Assembly (NCBI GenBank): GCA_000004985.1
Contig: GG738847.1
From: Naegleria gruberi
Taxonomy: Eukaryota
DNA: 64,000 bases
Reading direction: 5' to 3' (one strand)
How positions within the stretch are numbered: the stretch's first letter is position 1; each line of letters opens with the position of its first letter. This document shows, in pieces, positions 20,343-62,883 of this stretch. Below the pieces are notes generated by a model, which was not told the DNA's origin, made no database searches, and was given only the letters and a program-made list of their open reading frames with translations. The position numbers were made by a program, and so were the translations under genes.

Positions 20343-20598
20343 GATCGTCCTATTAATGCAATGGTTAGTATCTTGTTGAATTGTTTTTTTTAAATTCTAT
20401 TTTTTGTCTGGCTTCCTTTTTATCCTCTTTGGTGGAACAATTTCATTTTATTGCTTGTACCACAATGATGAGCATGGAAAAACTGAAAGGCATTCAACCA
20501 GGATGAAAGTGCGCCTCTTCAACAATCAAATTGCAGCATACCGCTGATCACTTTGTTTTTAACGTTTTATTTTTAATTAAATTTGCAATTCATAAAAA

Positions 20599-39180: not shown

Positions 39181-41260
39181 TTAATAATAATCATGATAAT
39201 CTCTAATTTGACCATTCCAAAAAGAGCACAAATCTCTAAAATCCTCTTGAGTGGCAAACATCTGAGCTCCCCTAAATCCCTCGTTCGAATCAGTAGAATG
39301 AACAATAGTTACATTCGGTAAAATTTTAGAAACTTCTTCAGCCCATCCATTTTCTGATCCTACCAATATTACATTTTTTACCTGTTCAATAACATCCATC
39401 CTCTTGGCCCTCAATACTTCTTTTAATCCTTTTTTGAACTCCTTTTCTATTGTCCTGTTTGAATCCACTTCATAAATGTCTCCAGCAAATGAGAAGAAAT
39501 TCAAAACCACACTGATGGTAATTGTGTTTACATCCTTCTCTATTACTATACAATGACTAATACTGTGATAGTATGCTATCATAGTATGTCTTGAAAGTAA
39601 ACAAACTGCAGGAACTTGCGTTTTCAATACCAAATCAATAAAATTGCTCAATTTTTTCATTTTCAGATATTTTGGAGGGATTGAGATTAATAATGGATGG
39701 CTTGGTGTGAAATTAATTTCTTCACAAACTTTGGAGAAAAATGTTCCAATGTTCATGGCTGTTACACGATAATCTTCTGCAGTTAAATAATCAAATACAT
39801 TTCTCTGGTCAGAACCCCTTCTACCAAGCATGGCATCTGAATAGCTGTAAAAGTTAAAGCTATTAAGGTATTGAGATATTGAGAAATTTCAACTCGTATA
39901 ATACTTACTGGCCTCCTGTATATCTACCCACATAGGGCTCAGTCGTTTTTGGAGTTTCATCACTGAAAAATCCAAAAGTTGCAACCTCACTGGTTATATC
40001 AATACAGATAGGTTTAAAATTGCGTTCAGTGAAATTTCTAACTCTAGCAGCATGATACCAATCTGTGAGTGGTTCTTTTTCACATAATTTAAGATAGGTA
40101 TTTCCATTCCAATATTTCTTGTACACTGCTTTCCATAAAATGGGCGATCTTGCAAGATGATTCAAATATCTACTCAATTGCAAACCAACAGAACATATTT
40201 CACTCTCTGAAAGAAAAGTGAATATGTTTAAAATAATCTCCTCTGGTAGAACTGTCAGATTATCATTCTTGTCGTTTTCAACTGGACCTTCCAATATACA
40301 GTATTGCCTATTTAACAAATATTCAAAGGTTTTACCACTCTTCACAAGCAGCCTCTGCCCAGCAAAATACTTTTCTGAAGATCCATAAACATCCCCACTC
40401 TTTTCAAGAGTTTCACTTTCCTTAAAAGCTTGCCCAATTTGTTGGTAAGTTTCTGATTGTTCAAAATTGTTATCTCTTGGAATTGAATTATTATCCACTC
40501 TGAGATACATAATTTCAGTTCTTAAAATATACTTGATTCCACTAATTACAGAACATCCTTCATGATAAAAATCTTGATTAAATAGAGCCAATTTACCAAC
40601 TGAAGGTTTCAAAGTATGATGAAGGTTGAAAGTATCGTCGTTTGGATCAGAGAAGAATTTGGTTTCTCCACCATTGAAATCCTGATTCAAATAGATCAGT
40701 AATGTGTAAATACTTCTCTCATTTTCACTTCTTCTAAACTGACCGTCGGTATGAATTTTGAAATATTCTCCCTTTTCATACTTGCTAAATCTCATACATT
40801 CATTAACTCCACAAGCTACCCATCTTCCTCTGCTGTCCAACCCATACGGGGCAATTGATTTTCCAATCTGATCTAGATCAATCTTGTTCTTTAGTCTATT
40901 AAATATCAAATCGGCCAACTTGTTATCTGTAACCAGTTCTCTCATGGCATTTCTGTGTTCCTTTGGATATTCATCTTCAAGAGATTGAAAATTGGAACAC
41001 TTTTTAATCAAATCTCTGCATTCATCATCGGAAAAGAAATTCGGAATGACCATCAATCTATTCAATGAATCTTCATAGAAAGGACCGGAAATCTCTAAAG
41101 GCTTCAATTCAAATGACTGTCTATCGTAGGAAAACATTTGCCTGACTTTAATAGAATCATCCGGTTCAATCACTGAATATTTAGATTTAATTCGTTGTTG
41201 TTGGAGATGGTCATTGTTATCATTTCTGGAAGAACTTGAAGCACTGTGTTTATTACCCAT
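39181..41260 (-). CDS. Multidomain protein of ~673 aa: N-terminal MGNKHS (myristoylation consensus) - 2OG-Fe(II) prolyl-4-hydroxylase-like domain - F-box - uncharacterised C-terminal domain. 2 exons: 39909-41260 and 39181-39844, with a 64-nt GTAAGT…TTTTACAG intron.
   Basis: P4H-type motifs are HTDGQF…RSIYTLLIYLNQDFNGGETKFF…FYHEG (HxD…H facial triad). The F-box is LPEEIILNIFTFLSESEICSVGLQLSRYLNHLARSPILWK. The junction …GRYTGG(H)|YSDAMLGRRG… is in phase, with the split codon CA|C. Confidence 0.6.
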
Positions 41261-49236: not shown

Positions 49237-49452
49237 ATGGGAGGAGCTGTGCCTCAATTCCAACATATGGGACAAGGTGCTCAACAAGTTCCTCAAATTC
49301 ATAACCAATACTATAACCAACAATCTCAAGCTCAACAAGGTAGGATAAACCAACTAGCCAACTCAAATAATGGCATGGGTCATTTTCAAGTTCCAATGAA
49401 CAATCAATCACAAACCCAAGGAGGTGGTCATCAACCTCACTATAACTTCTAA
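49237..49452 (+). CDS. Speculative small Gln-rich ORF (71 aa).
   Basis: ORF track only. An overlapping alternative frame, MYDTWEELCLNSNIWDKVLNKF…, is equally plausible. There is no homology anchor. Confidence 0.12.
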   Translation: MGGAVPQFQHMGQGAQQVPQIHNQYYNQQSQAQQGRINQLANSNNGMGHFQVPMNNQSQTQGGGHQPHYNF

Positions 49453-49615: not shown

Positions 49616-52600
49616 CTAAAGGAGTAAGAAATTACAAATCATCACAACCATGACGAATACTGATGCAACAATCTTACCAGAACCATTAACATCAGTACTA
49701 TGTATTGGAACAGTACCATTGTTATTATTGTTATTGTTATTATTATTGTTATTGTTTGTAGGAGAACCTGAGCTAGTAGCAACAATCACTTGTTTTGATT
49801 CGTCCACAACAACCAAATCTGTTGTAGCAGCAACAGATGAAGTTGAGAACAATGAAGCAGTTGGTGTGAAAGTAAATGAAGTCTTAACCACTGCTGCACT
49901 ATCTTTCTTCACCAAATTAATTTGGAGCAATTGATCAATGGTTGAAACAGTACATGCACTAACAGTGTACAATGTCGTCAAATCAGTTGACCCACTCTTA
50001 ATCATATCAAAGATCTTACTTGGATTTGCATTAATATCAGCAATTCCCTTCACATCAAATGGATGGTCAGGATTACTATTGTAAACCATAAATTCGGTAT
50101 TTCCAGCTGTTGCTTGATTAATCCAAACCATGTCGACAGTTGTTGGTTTCAAATCTTCCAAAGTCAATTTCAAAGCACATTTTGAAAGTAAATTGAATTG
50201 AACTAAGGTACCAGTTGTCTTGGAGAAGGCAATTGGCAATCTCTTAACTGTTGAAGTATAGGAATAACTTGAAGTGGCAATTGAGTTGACATCAGTAATT
50301 GATGGAGTTGCCTTTACAGTATTGGAATTGACAGACATGTCATAGACACATGTGGCATCGGTACTTTCAGCAATGAGAACAAGACCAATTTTGTTGGCAG
50401 TTTTGGCATTGTTCAAGTCAGCTGCCAAATCCAAATAAAAGTTTCCATTGATGGCTGGATCCATTGTAATGGAAGTTGCGTCAATTTCTCTTCTTGCAAT
50501 GGTCAAAGTTCTAGGAAATACTTGCTTCCAAAAAGATGGAAACTGAACTTGTCTTCTTGTTGGTGACCTTAATTTGAATAAACCTTTCGGCTGTTCCAGT
50601 ACAAACATTCGAAATGTCAATACTAAACAGTGCAACCTCACCTACCTTTTCAGCAACCAAATTATTGATTGATTTGGTATCTCTACTCATTTCTTTAGAA
50701 TCAACAACAATATTAGAATCATAACTCATTACAACACCTGTTGCACTATTCACAATTCTCAAATATAAAGTCTTGGCATTGATATCTGTCATCCTGACAG
50801 CTGAACACTTCATACCATAATAGCTAAAATCAGAATTTGGACCAATAACCTTAGTTTCAGATGGAACACCACTATTAAGAATATCATTGTAAACAAATTG
50901 AAGATTAATTTGATTGGTTGACATCATTGACACATCACCCTTATTCAAATATTCATCAGCAATTGGAAAAATTGTTTCACCAACTCCATAATTAACCATG
51001 AATGAACTACCATCATTGAGAATATTGGTATAGAAATCATTTGCAAATTTGAGTTTACCAGCACCTTCCAAAGAAGTCATTGACAAATATGGATAAGTAT
51101 ATCTATTCAAATTAATGATTAATCTTCCAGAACGGAATGGATTTACAATCTTGGAATTGAAATCCATGATATTGTAAGGAGCCATACCAATTTGCTTAAT
51201 TGTGAAACTTTCATCAAGTGGAATGACAGTTGCCAATAAAATCTTATCAGTATTTCCAATATTCATATTTTCCAAAGTCAAGTGGAAAGTATATTCAGTT
51301 TCCTTATCAATATAATTGAACTTGGCACCATTTGACATCTTGTACATGTTTCCAGATGTCCATGCTTCTGACAAGGTCAAACTAAATTTACCCCAAGCTT
51401 GCATTGAGAAGGCATAACGTGGATAATTAGCAGCAGTATCCAAAATCTTCATAAAGATAATTGGGTTTCCAACCTTTTAGTAAGTATATGAGAACCAACC
51501 ACCATAAGTTGTTGTGCTTAATTCAAAATCAGTTGTCACTATTTTTTGATCTGTGAGAATTGACATGAAAACAACATCACTTTCACGTGGGGCATCATAT
51601 CTGAGAATAAAATCGACTTCACCTTCAATGATATTTTCCTTAGTTGGATCAGGAGTTGAAGTAAAGATGAAAATTGGAGTTTGAGCTGTTTTGTAAACAA
51701 CCTTAATAAAAGTGCCATCCTCCATGACTGTTCCATCATTGACAGTTTGAGTGACATCATAATCACCTTGAGTAATAAGAACGTCATTTTGAGCAGTATT
51801 GGTATTCAACATATTCTTATAAACTTCAAATTTAAAATATTTCTTTGTAGTTCCTCCATTTGGAATACTAATTGTGGCCAAAGTGACTCCTTGGACAGAT
51901 TTAGAAACAGTGAAAGGTAATAGCATCTCCTTTGGCAGCTACATAACCATACTTGACATAGTAAAAGTTATTATTGGCATTCTTAATATTAAATTCATAG
52001 AATGCTGGAGTTGACTTGAACTCTGGTTGAACAACGACTGGAACTGGAACAGGATCTGAGGCTGGATCTGCTTTACCAACATAGTTATTGGCTCCTGGAA
52101 CTAAGTTACCATTACTATCTGTAGTAGATTCAGCATACTTTGGTTTTGGTGGACTCATGGTCTTGAATTTACCACTCATTGAGGCAATTTCAGTTTTACC
52201 AACTAATTCTAATTCCTTACTACCACCAAATTTCTCAGATTCATAATAGAAAATTAAATTGTAATAGGCGCTCAATTTACAATAAGCTGAAACTGAATCA
52301 CCTTCAATCAATCCTTCGCCAATCAATTCAATTCTGAAACGAGGAGCAATACCAACATAAACAGAGGCCAATTCCTTAACACCCAAAATCTTAACATTGA
52401 CTTCAACACCTGGAATCAATCCAAAGTAAACATTGGTCACAGCATTTACTTCAATCTTTGGTGGATCAGATGAGAAAGTAATTCCATCTCCTTCCTTTAC
52501 AGTACTATAAGTTCCATCATTGTACTCATAACCCAATGTCTTTTGGATGAGTAATTCAAAGTTTCTACGATAGGAAATTGTACCAGTGGCTTCGATTTTA

Positions 52601-53849
52601 CCTTTGAATTTAAGACTTGGAAGTACGGAGACAGTTAATACTGGAACAGCACTAATCATGATTGGAATGGTAACAGCTGGAGCTTTGAGTAAGAGTTTTT
52701 CAATATCCTTTTCGTATTTTGCTGTGACTGCCAGTCTGACATAACCAGATGTCTTCCAACTACCACCAACTGTTGCACGCAAGGTCTTTAAAGTGATCAA
52801 TTTGATATTGACCTTCAATGAGAATTCCATAAAGATTCTAGAGATACAATCTTCACAGGCAACTTCAAGAGATTCAGCCTTATAAATTGGAATGTTATTA
52901 TTAATTGGTGTTCCAGAACTATCACAATTAATATTTAACATTGGAGTGGTGTAACTTGCGGATCCTTCATAAGTTGGATCTGGAAGAGCAGCCTTGACAG
53001 TTTGATAGGCATTGTTGACAGCACCACCAACAGCAGCACCTGCCTTCTTGACTGAATTCCAAGCATCACTCAATCCCCAGAGAACTTTTCTAGAGATTGG
53101 TGTAACTCCTCTTGAGTTAACTCCAATTTCTGCCTCCATGAACAATTCAGCAGGAGACATGGAACGAGTTTGGAAACGAACTCTCATCATATTTCCTTCA
53201 TGAGCTATGATTTCACGCGTGAGGACAACATTGGTTGTGGCAGGATTCTCAGCACGATCTTCTTGACCTCTGAAACAATTCCACTTTTCACTAATGATGA
53301 ATCTTGTACCAGGAATGAAACGAGAGGCAGTACGCGCGTGATCTGAAAAGTCAATGGTGATGGAGTCATCAGTTGGATCACACTTGACGTCCCATACATT
53401 GAGTTCTCTATCAAGATTAACAATACCAGAGAGAGCTGTACCTTCAACTGAATAAATCTTCATGGTGTTACCTTCTACTCGACCAACATTATGTCTAATT
53501 GGAGCATAGTCGACATTTCTCTTCAATTTATTGATACTTCTCTTGTTGGTTCTCAATTCAATTTCAGAAGCACCCAAAGTATAGGTATTTCTCAAGTGGA
53601 ATGGATCTCTTCTCAAAGCTTGAAACAATTCCTCACCGGAAATGAAAGGACTGATGGTAGCGGAAGTTGTGGAAAGTCGATACCTTCAAAATTCATCTCA
53701 AGGAAGGATGAGGAGTGAAGGGATCTTTTGGCTTGTCCCTTCAATCCAAACATTCTCTTGGAGGGAAAGACAGTCATCTTGGATGTTGGTGTGTTTGCCA
53801 TGGCTAACACACTCATCACCACCAACAAGACGAAACTTGTGAATAGCAC
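49616..53849 (-). CDS. Giant secreted, GPI-anchored surface (adhesin-like) protein of ~1400 aa, assembled from 5 ORF segments. The gene is disrupted: two unresolved frame changes and one in-frame TAA.
   Basis: Segments on the minus strand are a signal-peptide ORF 53613-53849 (…FVLLVVMSVLAMANTP…), 51901-53628 (575 aa), 51477-51926 (149 aa), 50511-51452 (313 aa) and 49616-50641 (341 aa). The last ends in N13 (PTNNNNNNNNNNNNNGT) and a hydrophobic GPI-type tail IVASVFVMVVMICNFLLL. A clean 55-nt GTAGGT…GGAACAG intron (50591-50645) joins the 313- and 341-aa parts in phase (…NLVAEK|PKGLFKLRSP…). The 149- and 313-aa parts are in the same frame, separated only by TAA 51477-51479. The signal->575 and 575->149 transitions change frame with no usable intron. 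A further upstream ATG micro-exon (~53940) is possible. Confidence 0.5.
49728..49757. repeat. (AAC/AAT)n microsatellite (minus-strand sense) encoding the poly-Asn13 stalk.
   Basis: gttattattgttattgttattattattgtt on the plus strand. Confidence 0.6.
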
Positions 53850-54425
53850 GAGTTTAAGTGATTTTAATTAGCCAATTTCATTACCCTTATTAGGACTTTT
53901 TGTGATTGCGAAACAAGAGTTCGTTTCACAAATTTGAATATTTTCAGTTCCTACCTTACTTTAAACAAACTTTGAACATTCAAGTGGATGAACTATTTCA
54001 ATGCATGCGTGATTGATTCAACTATATTTCTGTAGGACTTTAAACAGCACTACAACATTCCAAGCGAAAAAAGTGACTTCGCTATTATCGTAGAAATAAA
54101 GTTTGTTTGTGAGCATTCTCTGAGTGGGAGATTCATCTAATAGTAAATAACAGTAAAACCATGCCTTAATTGAAATTGCCTTATTTCTTTTCCTCTTTTC
54201 TTCTTCTTCCCCGATATAGTGGAACTTACACTCAATTTGTAAAGAAAGAAAGTCGACTTATCATTGAAACAATGCAGTGGACCTTCTCAAGTTTATGACA
54301 AAAAACATAATAAGCAACTCGAACAAATATCTGAGTAAAGACTTTACTAAACATTGATAATATTCTTCTTCCGTAGTGAAGGTGAATTTTAAATTGCCTT
54401 CTTCTTCATTCGGAATAAAATCACA

Positions 54426-58170: not shown

Positions 58171-60288
58171 TTAATTCAATTTTCTTACAATTAAGGGCCA
58201 ACCAACTTGTATCACTGCATACTTATGAATGCTTTTTGATTTGTCAGCATCATTTTCATATTGAGCATATTGTTTGACTTGAGAAATTGCAGAATTCAAA
58301 ATTGATCTGGCTACAACTTTCTCTTTGGCATGAGTAAGTACTTCCATTTCTAATAATTCTTCATCAGTTTGTTTAGATAAATCTTTAAATATATTTTTAA
58401 AAATTTGCGGATTCCAATATTCAATATTGGAATATTTTGTTAAAGAATTTGGTCTAATACGTTTGAATTCAATTATTAATACTTTTTTAGAAGTTCTTAT
58501 CACAAGATCAGCACGTTTGATGTATTCCTTATTGTTAGAATTCTTTACATGATATTCCTTTTCAGCTTGAATTTTCAATTCTTTGTTTCTAAATAAACAA
58601 TATGCTCTTAATGCAGATTCAATACTTGCTTGTAAACCTCCTTCAGACATTGAATTGTCATAAATAGTTTCTTGTTTTTCTAAAATATTATTGAGTAACA
58701 TTCTCAAATTATCTTGGGTAGGTTCATTAATAAAAGTTGATACATCATTTTCATGTAGAGATATAAGTCTACGTAACTGCTCTAAATATTGGACTTTTGC
58801 AATTTCATTTGGAATTAACAATTGTTTTGGGTTCATCTGTTTTGATGATTCTTTTGTGAAGGTAACCATACCGTGATAATACATGAATGATAAAGCATTA
58901 TCACGAATCTTTTGTATATCTTCTTCATTGGATGGTGGATCAATAATCTCTCTTAATTTCAGTGAAGGATAAATTGACTCTGTTACTTCTACATAATCTT
59001 TTGAAAGTAATTGTTGAATAATATCATTCGATACAACTGATGATGCCAAAGTTGCAAAAACGTTCTCACTGATCATTGTGTTGGTATCTGTTAATATTGA
59101 TAATGGAATTTCTTGTTTTTGTAGAACAGCATTTCTGAAAGGTTCATCTTTTACAAGTTTGTTCAAAAAGAACATTGAAAGAGTTGTGTTGAATAGAGCA
59201 TGTTTTGAACCAGGAAAATGATAACCTTTATAATACTTTTTCATGGTTGAAATGGTAATATCTTGATCATTTCCAATAATATCAATGTTATTTAATGCCA
59301 TTCTCAGATCATTTTCTGTAAAACCAACCAAACCACCAAATATCTTATCAAAGGAAATATTACTGGAAACATTATATCCAGATGCATCTGCAAGAGCAAT
59401 AGGAGTGATACCAGTGATGATACTACGAAAATCTTGTAAACCAACACCGGAAGACTCTTTCAATCTTTCAAAGAAAGAACGAATTGGTGAAGATGTTGGA
59501 TCTCCTCTCTTTCCTTCAACTATTAATTGATATTTTTCAGGATTTTCAAACATTAATTTGTTTGCAAATCTATCATATTCATCAATTAATATCATTAATT
59601 TGGCTCCTTTTTCTATTAATATAGCCACCAGAGTTGCTAAAGTATCGAACGAATTTTTGTGATTAATATCCATCTCTTTAGTTAATTCATAGTAACGTAA
59701 AAAACCATAAATGGATGTGTTTACTTTCTCATGAAGCCGTTGATTAATATCTTCCGTTGTACCATCAACTTGAATAGAAAAATCTAACTTTAAAACATGA
59801 TATTGATTCTTTCCAGGTGTCCAATTATTTTCATCACCAATCCATAAACCAGAAAATAATTCATCAAATTCATCTTTCTTGTTAATATCATAATATGATG
59901 AAAGCATTGATAATAATAGTGATTTTCCCCATCTCGGAGGACGAACAAAAAATAATTGTTTTCCACTTTCTTCTAATAGAGGAATTAAATTAGTTTTATC
60001 AACATAAAATTGTTTACTTCTTCTGATGGAAGCAAAATCTGATTCACCATATGGAAAATATGGCACCAACAAATTTCCGTCACCAATATTTTTAAATTTA
60101 ATATTTTCAACATTATTTGTTGTTGGTTTTAATGTATTTGAATAGTTTTTAGTTTGATTCACTCTATTAATTGTAAACTTGTTAATATCATTAGTTAAAT
60201 TATTAATTTTTAATATTGATCTATTGATTTTGGGTGATGCAGTAAATAACTGCAATCTATTGATTTTACGAAGGAAGGTATGTTTCAT
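58171..60288 (-). CDS. Predicted AAA-ATPase-like (PF09820-type N-domain) plus PD-(D/E)XK nuclease-like (PDDEXK_9-type C-domain) protein, 705 aa in a single exon.
   Basis: The N-domain signature is FYVDKTNLIPLLEESGKQLFFVRPPRWGKSLLLSMLSSYYD…HVLKLDFS… (consensus …RPRRFGKSL…). The C-terminal …NKEYIKRADLVIRTSKKVLIIEFKRIR… is the PD-(D/E)XK core (D…(I/V)EFK). It is preceded by an ~100-aa Asn/Lys-rich low-complexity leader. It is flanked by the two largest ORF-free intervals in the window (~57.5-58.2 kb and 60.3-61.6 kb). Confidence 0.75.
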   Translation of the reverse strand: MKHTFLRKINRLQLFTASPKINRSILKINNLTNDINKFTINRVNQTKNYSNTLKPTTNNVENIKFKNIGDGNLLVPYFPYGESDFASIRRSKQFYVDKTNLIPLLEESGKQLFFVRPPRWGKSLLLSMLSSYYDINKKDEFDELFSGLWIGDENNWTPGKNQYHVLKLDFSIQVDGTTEDINQRLHEKVNTSIYGFLRYYELTKEMDINHKNSFDTLATLVAILIEKGAKLMILIDEYDRFANKLMFENPEKYQLIVEGKRGDPTSSPIRSFFERLKESSGVGLQDFRSIITGITPIALADASGYNVSSNISFDKIFGGLVGFTENDLRMALNNIDIIGNDQDITISTMKKYYKGYHFPGSKHALFNTTLSMFFLNKLVKDEPFRNAVLQKQEIPLSILTDTNTMISENVFATLASSVVSNDIIQQLLSKDYVEVTESIYPSLKLREIIDPPSNEEDIQKIRDNALSFMYYHGMVTFTKESSKQMNPKQLLIPNEIAKVQYLEQLRRLISLHENDVSTFINEPTQDNLRMLLNNILEKQETIYDNSMSEGGLQASIESALRAYCLFRNKELKIQAEKEYHVKNSNNKEYIKRADLVIRTSKKVLIIEFKRIRPNSLTKYSNIEYWNPQIFKNIFKDLSKQTDEELLEMEVLTHAKEKVVARSILNSAISQVKQYAQYENDADKSKSIHKYAVIQVGWPLIVRKLN

Positions 60289-62809: not shown

Positions 62810-62883
62810 TACAGCGAGCGGGGCTTGAACCCGCGACCTTAAGCGTGTTAGGCTTACGATCTAACCAACTGATCTATCGCTGC
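62810..62883 (-). tRNA. tRNA-Val (anticodon AAC), 74 nt, no intron, CCA not encoded.
   Basis: Reverse complement GCAGCGATAGATCAGTTGGTTAGATCGTAAGCCTAACACGCTTAAGGTCGCGGGTTCAAGCCCCGCTCGCTGTA folds as a canonical cloverleaf. The 7-bp acceptor stem has G1·U72. D-stem is GATC/GATC, anticodon stem TAAGC/GCTTA, loop CUAACAC (U33, AAC, A37), T-stem GCGGG/CCCGC, T-loop TTCAAGC, discriminator A. Confidence 0.9.

What the first reader, a model, noticed from the sequence alone, without database searches (positions are those of the whole stretch)
49616..53849. Giant poly-Asn/GPI surface-protein gene with one clean intron but three additional coding disruptions
A signal-peptide exon, four large ORF blocks and a GPI-type tail make up a ~1400-aa adhesin-like protein. 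One junction is a textbook 55-nt GTAGGT…CAG intron (50591-50645). Another is an in-frame TAA (51477-51479). Two more (near 53613-53628 and 51901-51926) change frame with no usable splice sites. This could be a decaying pseudogene of a fast-evolving surface family, a variable contingency locus, or local consensus errors.
Basis: seen in the sequence. Interest (0 to 1): 0.5.

Follow-up and report, generated by a model that had tools for sequence, protein, structure and literature searches.

The report
Dead surface-protein gene in Naegleria gruberi
This is an unannotated, broken copy (pseudogene) of a giant secreted surface protein found almost only in Naegleria and related amoebae; the supposed intron is really coding sequence followed by one more frameshift, so the finding is ordinary gene decay.

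Summary
The minus-strand ORF blocks, the in-frame TAA, the two frame changes, the poly-Asn run and the hydrophobic tail are all real. The window is Naegleria gruberi: its aconitase is 100% identical to the NCBI protein.

The blocks are collinear, end to end, with intact 1,300-1,560-aa proteins. Named members come from N. gruberi (two paralogs, 23-25% identical), N. lovaniensis, Willaertia and Percolomonas. None has a Pfam or PDB match.

A 99%-identical metagenome contig (L001) shows what the disruptions are:
- a 266-bp deletion that removes the ATG and the upstream DNA
- a 1-nt deletion
- a 2-nt deletion
- replacement of 126 coding nt by TAAAAG, which creates the TAA

L001 has its own 20-nt deletion.

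The "clean intron" is not supported:
- Its 55 nt encode a conserved motif in frame 0.
- A frameshift model beats the spliced model by 32 bits.
- 95 alternative GT..AG pairs would also join the two frames.

So there is a fifth lesion near 50513. Substitutions between the two copies are 9 nonsynonymous to 2 synonymous. No annotated protein covers the locus.

Verdict: a recent unprocessed pseudogene. It is not a contingency locus, not recoding, and probably not assembly error. Low interest.

The parts
53865..53870 (-). Breakpoint of a 266-bp deletion relative to L001, flanked by AATT microhomology. The lost DNA holds the start codon and first codons (ATG TTC AAC C = MFNQ) and about 255 bp of upstream DNA, presumably 5'UTR and promoter.
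   Evidence: alignment. L001 reads MFNQLKSLKLVLFTSF...; the lost segment has no other copy in the window.
53662..53849 (-). Block 1 (frame 0): the remnant of the signal peptide (VLFTSFVLLVVMSVLAMA) and the N-terminal region. It has no ATG; the first in-frame ATG is at 53816. It carries a 3-nt in-frame insertion at about 53706 relative to L001.
53660..53662 (-). Lesion A: a 1-nt deletion (L001 CTTCCAGCTACC, window CTTCCGCTACC). It shifts frame 0 to frame 2 inside the conserved PF..P..HPF....EL motif.
51919..53660 (-). Block 2 (frame 2): the conserved N-terminal domain, with the VWDV.C, W(I/V)PGTR, FNY(D/N) and C..C motifs. AlphaFold2 models a meander of very long antiparallel beta strands.
   Evidence: E = 9e-57 to 1e-31 against homologs
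51917..51920 (-). Lesion B: a 2-nt deletion (L001 ATTACACC, window ATTACC). It shifts frame 2 to frame 0.
51480..51918 (-). Block 3 (frame 0): middle region.
51474..51479 (-). Lesion C: 126 coding nt of L001 (42 codons, RGPRGDRTMKGK...DGSRTGS) are replaced by TAAAAG. This creates the in-frame TAA at 51479-51477. Homologs have residues across the lost stretch.
50514..51473 (-). Block 4 (frame 0): beta-sandwich region.
   Evidence: 197.8 vs 165.6 bits; alignment; (block pLDDT 74-89 over residues 271-320 of the model)
50505..50530 (-). Lesion D: a frameshift from frame 0 to frame 1 (+1 nt or -2 nt) at or just before the TAG at 50513-50511. L001 does not cover it.
   Evidence: the frame-0 block aligns to the homolog profile through residue 320 of 321, and the frame-1 block aligns only from residue 48..
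49616..50512 (-). Block 5 (frame 1): C-terminal beta-sandwich domains, the poly-Asn run (49756-49718), small residues NGSG, a hydrophobic GPI-signal-like tail (49672-49619), and the TAG stop (49618-49616).

Best explanation
The locus is an unprocessed, recently inactivated pseudogene in the Naegleria gruberi genome. The ancestral gene was intronless across this region. It encoded a protein of about 1,440 aa with these parts, in order:
- an N-terminal signal peptide
- a conserved N-terminal domain built of very long antiparallel beta strands
- several beta-sandwich (jelly-roll-like) domains
- a low-complexity Asn/Ser/Thr stalk
- a C-terminal hydrophobic GPI-attachment-type signal

That makes it an extracellular, membrane-tethered, probably ligand- or substrate-binding surface protein. 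It belongs to a family seen almost only in Heterolobosea.

The window copy cannot make this protein, for three reasons:
1. A 266-bp deletion has removed the ATG and the upstream DNA.
2. Three frameshifts break the reading frame: -1 nt at 53661, -2 nt at 51918, and one near 50513.
3. A 126-nt coding stretch has been replaced by TAAAAG, which gives an in-frame TAA.

Shown here: the lesions, the homology, and the coding nature of the 'intron'. Inferred: that the lesions are real mutations rather than assembly errors, GPI anchoring, surface binding as the ancestral function, and lack of expression.
For: - Organism: the aconitase ORF is 100% identical to N. gruberi mitochondrial aconitate hydratase.
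- Family: phmmer against 1.84 billion representatives finds 20 relatives, with intact 1,298-1,560-aa members. Named members come from N. gruberi (x2), N. lovaniensis, N. fowleri, Willaertia magna and Percolomonas.
- Collinearity: a repaired protein (L001 plus window, 1,442 aa) aligns end to end with these homologs.
- Lesions: the alignment to the 99%-identical contig L001 defines four lesions as deletions in the window. L001 reads through each of them in one frame.
- Ancestral state: homologs have residues across the 42-codon gap.
- Intron refuted: the frameshift model scores 197.8 bits and the spliced model 165.6 bits against a homolog profile. The 'intron' encodes the conserved lf.id...C motif just ahead of rYiq. 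That stretch is the best-modelled part of the C-terminal AlphaFold2 model. 95 alternative GT..AG pairs would also restore the frame.
- Relaxed constraint: window-vs-L001 substitutions in the gene are 9 nonsynonymous: 2 synonymous. The neighbouring ZZ-domain gene is protein-identical, with indels only in intergenic DNA.
- Independent decay: L001 carries its own 20-nt frameshifting deletion.
- Annotation: no annotated N. gruberi protein covers the locus.
- Termini: signal-peptide and GPI-like ends are seen across the family.
Against: - No sequencing reads were available, so the 1-nt and 2-nt lesions, and the one near 50513, cannot be formally separated from consensus errors.
- Lesion D is placed by homology only, because L001 ends at 50657.
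- Each block is still free of point-mutation stop codons. The decay is therefore recent, and the case rests on indels.
- Substitution counts are small (11).
- The origin of the metagenome contig is unknown. It could be another strain or the other haplotype.
- Expression was not tested.
Confidence: 0.8

Rival explanations
1. The gene is intact in the organism, and the disruptions are errors of the assembly that the window comes from.
For: A near-identical sequence (L001) is continuous at four of the five lesion sites. No stop codons from point substitutions are seen inside the blocks.
Against: - Two lesions are large: 266 nt lost, and 126 nt replaced by 6 nt. These are not consensus-type errors.
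- The small indels are not in homopolymers (CCAGC to CCGC; ACAC to AC).
- L001 has its own independent 20-nt deletion.
- Substitutions are 9 nonsynonymous: 2 synonymous.
- Elsewhere the two sequences also differ by real-looking intergenic indels, while neighbouring coding sequence is clean.
Confidence: 0.08
2. The window and L001 are two haplotypes of one heterozygous N. gruberi clone (or population). Each is a null allele with different lesions, so the locus is a segregating loss-of-function polymorphism rather than a fixed pseudogene. Intact alleles may still exist in nature. This is a variant of the best explanation, not an exclusive alternative.
For: Nucleotide identity is 98.4-99.8% across the aligned L001 segments and 99.7% for L002. 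The lesions in the two copies do not overlap, so their union is an intact ORF over the stretch L001 covers. Heterozygosity and ploidy variation are reported in Naegleria strains (PMC9928731).
Against: The sample behind ERZ929261 is unknown, and no paper was found for the project. No intact allele was found in any database. Both observed copies are dead.
Confidence: 0.25
3. This is a functional gene expressed through one real intron plus recoding: programmed frameshifts, TAA read-through, or micro-introns.
For: GT..AG boundaries exist at 50645-50591. The frame-2 block ends in TTC TAA A, which would allow a +1 slip (read directly from the sequence).
Against: - L001 shows that the frames are simply continuous when 1 nt, 2 nt and 126 nt are restored.
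- The window has no start codon or upstream region.
- The 'intron' encodes conserved residues.
- Neighbouring genes are long, uninterrupted standard-code ORFs with strong Pfam matches, for example a 1,426-codon RNA polymerase subunit and aconitase.
- The TAA sits exactly on a deletion junction.
Confidence: 0.02
4. This is a contingency (phase-variable) surface-antigen locus that switches on and off by slippage.
For: It is a surface-protein gene with a poly-Asn tract. One lesion is the loss of one unit of an (AC)2 dinucleotide.
Against: No lesion lies in a long simple-sequence tract. The poly-Asn run is in-frame and is not a lesion site. Two lesions are large, irreversible deletions, one of which removes the ATG. 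There are no paralogous donor copies in the window.
Confidence: 0.02

Closest known systems
N. gruberi uncharacterized proteins NAEGRDRAFT_79262 (XP_002678783.1, 1,452 aa) and NAEGRDRAFT_75303 (XP_002669735.1, 1,399 aa), with relatives in N. lovaniensis (XP_044547433.1), Willaertia magna (KAL9643240.1), N. fowleri (XP_044569853.1) and Percolomonas
   Same: Collinear over the whole length. They share the signal peptide, the PF..P..HPF....EL...DPF motif, VWDV.C, W(I/V)PGTR, FNY(D/N), the C..C pair, the long-strand beta domain, the C-terminal beta-sandwich region and the hydrophobic C-terminal tail.
   Different: Only 21-25% identical over the full length, making it the most divergent of the Naegleria/Willaertia set. 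It has a poly-Asn stalk. The window copy is disrupted five times and is unannotated, whereas these relatives are intact gene models. None has a known function, a Pfam domain or a solved relative.
Unprocessed (non-retrotransposed) pseudogenes of lineage-specific surface-protein families in protists
   Same: It sits in place among ordinary genes. It has frameshifts, deletions, a premature stop and loss of the start codon. Substitutions look unconstrained. Lesions differ between close haplotypes.
   Different: It is very young. There are no point-mutation stops, the blocks are still hundreds of codons long, and two 99%-identical copies have entirely different lesions over the part that can be compared.
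Collagen-binding / pre-peptidase C-terminal (PPC) beta-sandwich domains of clostridial collagenases, and SID1 extracellular beta-sandwich domains (fold resemblance only)
   Different: Sequence identity is 4-10%, the model is of moderate confidence (pLDDT 66), and there is no sequence-profile match. This is a generic extracellular binding-module fold, not evidence of family membership.

Membership tests
Heterolobosean giant surface-protein family (NAEGRDRAFT_79262-like; unnamed, no Pfam) | Significant sequence similarity that is collinear over the full length (about 1,300-1,560 aa) | tested here: met
   E = 3.8e-50, 9.7e-43, 1.2e-41 and 1.0e-31 against full-length members; end-to-end alignment; C-terminal half scores 198 bits against the profile
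Heterolobosean giant surface-protein family (NAEGRDRAFT_79262-like; unnamed, no Pfam) | Conserved N-terminal motifs and cysteines (PF..P..HPF....EL...DPF, VWDV.C, W(I/V)PGTR, FNY(D/N), C..C) | tested here: met
   C83 and C118 are invariant, and C258 and C261 nearly invariant, in the 575-aa block..
Heterolobosean giant surface-protein family (NAEGRDRAFT_79262-like; unnamed, no Pfam) | An intact ORF that encodes the protein | tested here: not met
   five disabling lesions in the window copy. It is a pseudogene member, not a functional one.
GPI-anchored secreted protein | An N-terminal signal peptide | tested here: inconclusive
   Present in the L001 allele (MFNQLKSLKLVLFTSFVLLVVMSVLAMA, mean Kyte-Doolittle hydropathy 2.76 over 15 residues). 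In the window the ATG is deleted and the first ATG lies after the hydrophobic core. No dedicated predictor was available.
GPI-anchored secreted protein | A C-terminal hydrophobic stretch ending at the last residue, preceded by small omega-site residues | tested here: met
   ...DVNGSGK-IVASVFVMVVMICNFLLL, hydropathy 2.69, with 0 residues after it. Five of the eight homologs examined show the same pattern. Actual GPI attachment cannot be tested here.
Spliceosomal intron at 50591-50645 | GT..AG boundaries that restore the frame | tested here: met
   However, 95 alternative pairs do the same, so this feature does not discriminate.
Spliceosomal intron at 50591-50645 | The removed sequence is non-coding, meaning it is absent from or unalignable to homologous proteins | tested here: not met
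   the frame-0 translation of the 'intron' aligns to conserved homolog residues, and the spliced model loses 32 bits; this stretch is modelled with pLDDT 74-89.
Spliceosomal intron at 50591-50645 | Splice junction seen in transcripts | not testable with these tools
   No RNA-seq data were available.
Unprocessed pseudogene | Multiple disabling mutations relative to an intact ancestral frame | tested here: met
Unprocessed pseudogene | Relaxed selective constraint | tested here: met
   9 nonsynonymous: 2 synonymous (small sample). The neighbouring gene has 0 nonsynonymous changes.
Unprocessed pseudogene | Lesions are real in the DNA of the organism (not assembly error), and there is no functional product | not testable with these tools
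   This needs reads, PCR and expression data.
Contingency / phase-variable locus | On/off switching through length changes in simple-sequence repeats within or upstream of the ORF | tested here: not met
   the lesions are a 266-nt deletion, a net 120-nt deletion, a non-repeat 1-nt deletion and (AC)2 to (AC)1. None lies in a repeat tract.
Programmed recoding (frameshifting or stop read-through) | The frame discontinuity is conserved in close relatives | tested here: not met
   the 99%-identical L001 is continuous at the two covered frameshift sites and at the TAA site.

The most novel reading that the evidence does not exclude
Two copies that are about 99% identical (strains or haplotypes) of a giant surface-protein gene carry completely different inactivating lesions: at least four in one and one in the other. 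No lesion is shared over the 3.2 kb that can be compared. This would mean recent, repeated and possibly selected loss of one divergent member of an undescribed, largely Heterolobosea-restricted family. That family's N-terminal domain of 35-45-residue antiparallel strands has no sequence relative and only generic fold matches among solved structures. If an intact allele exists in wild N. gruberi, the locus would be a natural presence/absence polymorphism for a major surface protein.
Probability: 0.25. Interest if true: 0.4.

Novelty: new member of a known kind. Interest (0 to 1): 0.18.

Why it matters
The main value is for annotation.

First, this locus in the N. gruberi genome should be marked as a pseudogene. 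It should not be modelled with an intron that bridges a frameshift. The case shows how a plausible GT..AG pair can hide a frameshift.

Second, it draws attention to an uncharacterised family of 1,300-1,560-aa, probably GPI-anchored, all-beta surface proteins. The family is present in Naegleria, including the pathogen N. fowleri, and in Willaertia and Percolomonas. It has no Pfam model and no solved relative, so it could be worth defining and testing as an adhesion or surface-binding protein.

The pseudogene itself is ordinary.

Tried and rejected
- **Pfam:** scans of the four window blocks and of six homologs found nothing relevant. The only hits were a sub-threshold low-complexity match and EGF in one distant member.
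- **PDB profile search:** no hits.
- **Word-indexed protein search with the spliced C-terminal model:** no hits.
- **Paralogs in the window:** none.
- **Exact-product look-ups:** these were meant to recover the reference contig or its annotation, or more contigs of the metagenome strain. Eight of ten found nothing. Only L001 and L002 were recovered. I therefore could not extend L001 past 50657 to see whether lesion D is shared.
- **JGI metagenome scans:** two exact-pattern scans found nothing.
- **AlphaFold-database fold search:** unavailable.
- **Literature:** searches for the ENA project and for all homolog identifiers found no papers.
- **Micro-introns:** I looked for one around the TAA, where TACTAAAAG resembles a branch point plus acceptor. 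No upstream GT gives a length divisible by 3, and L001 shows the site is a deletion junction.
- **Alternative genetic code or Euplotes-like +1 frameshifting at TTC-TAA-A:** rejected, because L001 is continuous there and the organism is Naegleria with standard-code neighbouring genes.
- **Mobile-element insertions in L001:** I asked whether the 266-nt and 126-nt L001-only segments could be insertions. They have no other copy in the window. One supplies the ATG, and the other is in-frame coding sequence that aligns to homologs.
Full report
**What is in the sequence.**
The feature lies on the minus strand. Six-frame translation and the ORF list confirm five adjacent open blocks:
- 53849-53616 (frame 0, TGA at 53615-53613)
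- 53628-51904 (frame 2, 575 codons, TAA at 51903-51901)
- 51926-51480 (frame 0, TAA at 51479-51477)
- 51476-50514 (frame 0, TAG at 50513-50511)
- 50641-49619 (frame 1, TAG at 49618-49616)

The last block carries a 13-Asn run (49756-49718). It ends in an 18-residue hydrophobic stretch (IVASVFVMVVMICNFLLL) preceded by NGSG. The 55-nt GTAGGT...AACAG string at 50645-50591 exists.

**Organism and context.**
The window is about 33% GC and is packed with long, mostly uninterrupted eukaryotic ORFs. These include an RNA polymerase largest subunit, aconitase, an ankyrin protein and a HAD hydrolase. The aconitase ORF is 100% identical to 'mitochondrial aconitate hydratase [Naegleria gruberi]'. It is 78% identical to N. 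lovaniensis and 76% to N. fowleri. The window is therefore N. gruberi nuclear DNA.

**Family.**
Pfam finds nothing in any block. The word-indexed protein search found a single hit, P0001. A full HMMER scan of 1.84 billion cluster representatives with the 575-aa block found 20 relatives.

Intact members are 1,298-1,560 aa long. The named ones are:
- two N. gruberi proteins, NAEGRDRAFT_79262 (XP_002678783.1) and NAEGRDRAFT_75303 (XP_002669735.1)
- N. lovaniensis XP_044547433.1
- Willaertia magna KAL9643240.1
- a shorter N. fowleri model, XP_044569853.1
- Percolomonas transcripts

There are also environmental contigs and one Stenamoeba transcriptome entry. All are 'hypothetical'. They have no Pfam domain apart from an EGF in one distant member, no PDB sequence relative, and no paper that mentions them.

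Most members have an N-terminal signal peptide and a hydrophobic stretch at the very C-terminus with 0-1 residues after it. That is the pattern of a GPI-attachment signal.

**A near-identical second copy explains the disruptions.**
P0001 comes from a 4-kb ENA metagenome contig (ERZ929261, k127_52016 = L001). L001 aligns to window 54289-50657 at 98.4-99.8% identity across its three segments. A second contig from the same assembly (L002) matches window 20666-19201 at 99.7%. Its ZZ-domain protein is identical, and the only indels are intergenic.

The base-level alignment shows that, relative to L001, the window has:
1. Lost 266 bp at about 53869 between AATT microhomologies. The lost DNA contains ATG TTC AAC C (MFNQ...) and the upstream region. 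The window copy therefore has no start codon, and its first in-frame ATG (53816) lies beyond the signal-peptide core.
2. Lost 1 nt at 53661/53662 (CCAGC to CCGC). This is the frame 0 to frame 2 shift, and it falls inside the family's conserved PF..P..HPF....EL motif.
3. Lost 2 nt at 51918/51919 (ACAC to AC). This is the frame 2 to frame 0 shift.
4. Had 126 in-frame coding nt (42 codons) replaced by TAAAAG at 51479-51474, which creates the in-frame TAA. Homologs have residues across this stretch, so L001 holds the ancestral state.

There is also a 3-nt in-frame indel at about 53706.

L001 reads through all four sites in one frame. It carries its own 20-nt frameshifting deletion at window 52850-52831, where the window is intact. 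The union of the two copies is an open frame of about 1,110 codons. Joined to the window's C-terminal blocks, it gives a 1,442-aa protein that aligns end to end with the homologs.

**The 'clean intron' is not an intron.**
L001 stops at 50657 and so does not cover it, but the homologs decide the matter.
- In the multiple alignment the spliced protein needs large gaps. The frame-0 read-through...AEKVGEVALFSIDISNVCTGTAERFIQIKVTNKKTSSVSIFLEASIS*, matches the homolog pattern (G)LF.(I/V)D...C...(R/N)Y(I/V)Q(F/L).(V/I)...E.S.
- I scored both models against a profile of the four closest full-length homologs. Frame 0 read through to 50514 and then switched to frame 1 scores 197.8 bits. The spliced model scores 165.6 bits.
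- The frame-0 block aligns to the profile through residue 320 of 321. The frame-1 block aligns only from residue 48 onwards.
- In an AlphaFold2 model of the frameshift-repaired C-terminal half, the residues encoded by the 'intron' and the following read-through (271-320) have block pLDDT values of 85, 85, 74, 89 and 84. These are the best in the model. Confidence falls to 49 and 41 right after the lesion.
- A GT..AG pair that restores the frame is not special here. 95 such pairs exist between 50760 and 50400.

The frame 0 to frame 1 change is therefore a fifth lesion (+1 nt or -2 nt) at or just before the TAG at 50513-50511.

**Selection.**
The 11 substitutions between L001 and the window inside the gene split 9 nonsynonymous to 2 synonymous. 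That is close to the neutral expectation. Indels are as frequent as in the flanking intergenic DNA. No annotated protein from N. gruberi or any other source covers the locus. No block contains a stop created by a point mutation, which fits very recent inactivation at about 0.3-0.4% divergence.

**What the ancestral protein probably was.**

Taken with the signal peptide, the Asn/Ser/Thr-rich stalk and the GPI-type tail, my inference is a membrane-tethered extracellular binding or adhesion protein. This rests on architecture only. No function has been tested for any family member.

**Rivals.**
- Assembly error: unlikely, given two large deletions, non-homopolymer small indels, the independent lesion in L001 and the neutral substitution pattern. 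It cannot be excluded without reads.
- Recoding or micro-introns: contradicted by the continuity of L001 and by the loss of the ATG.
- Contingency locus: contradicted by the nature of the lesions.
- Two null haplotypes of one heterozygous clone or population: this remains open as a variant of the main explanation. Naegleria strains show heterozygosity and ploidy variation (PMC9928731). I could not establish where the metagenome sample came from.

**Verdict.**
This is an ordinary, young, unprocessed pseudogene of a poorly known heterolobosean surface-protein family. The interesting residue is the family itself and the independent lesions in two near-identical copies.

Noticed in passing
window 52831-52850 (versus L001 1704/1705): The metagenome copy L001 has its own 20-nt deletion here, plus an adjacent G-to-T change. 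This frameshifts that copy, while the window is intact at this point. The two near-identical copies therefore carry non-overlapping inactivating lesions.
   Followed up: partly
window 52702-52734: There is a cluster of three substitutions and a compensating -1/+1 indel pair three bases apart between the window and L001 (window GGATAT-TGAAAA, L001 GGA-ATATGAAAA). It changes KDIEK to KEYEK. This dense patch of differences within 33 nt could be a small complex mutation or a gene-conversion tract.
   Followed up: no
window 62810-62883 (-): tRNA-Val (anticodon AAC). It is the only RNA gene that ARAGORN and Rfam detect in the 64-kb window.
   Followed up: yes
window 39905-41260 (-): A 451-aa ORF combines a 2OG-Fe(II) oxygenase domain, which also matches the poxvirus C4/C10 family, with an F-box-like domain. 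This is an unusual domain pairing.
   Followed up: no
window 58171-60288 (-): A 705-aa ORF with a 'Predicted AAA-ATPase' domain (PF09820, E = 2e-41). No exact product is on record.
   Followed up: no
window 20343-20598 (versus L002): The intergenic spacer between the ZZ-domain gene and the RNA polymerase gene differs from the metagenome strain by two 1-nt indels and one substitution. The flanking coding sequence has only one synonymous change. Between these two genomes, indels are about as common as substitutions in non-coding DNA.
   Followed up: partly
protein P0015 (EukProt, Stenamoeba stenopodia transcriptome): One family member is filed under an amoebozoan transcriptome, while all other named members are Heterolobosea. 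This could reflect contamination or prey, or a wider distribution of the family.
   Followed up: no
window 49237-49452 (+): A short Gln/Asn-rich ORF (71 aa, ...QQSQAQQGRINQLANSNNGMGHFQ...) lies immediately downstream of the pseudogene on the opposite strand. It is probably the terminal exon of a neighbouring gene. I did not examine it.
   Followed up: no
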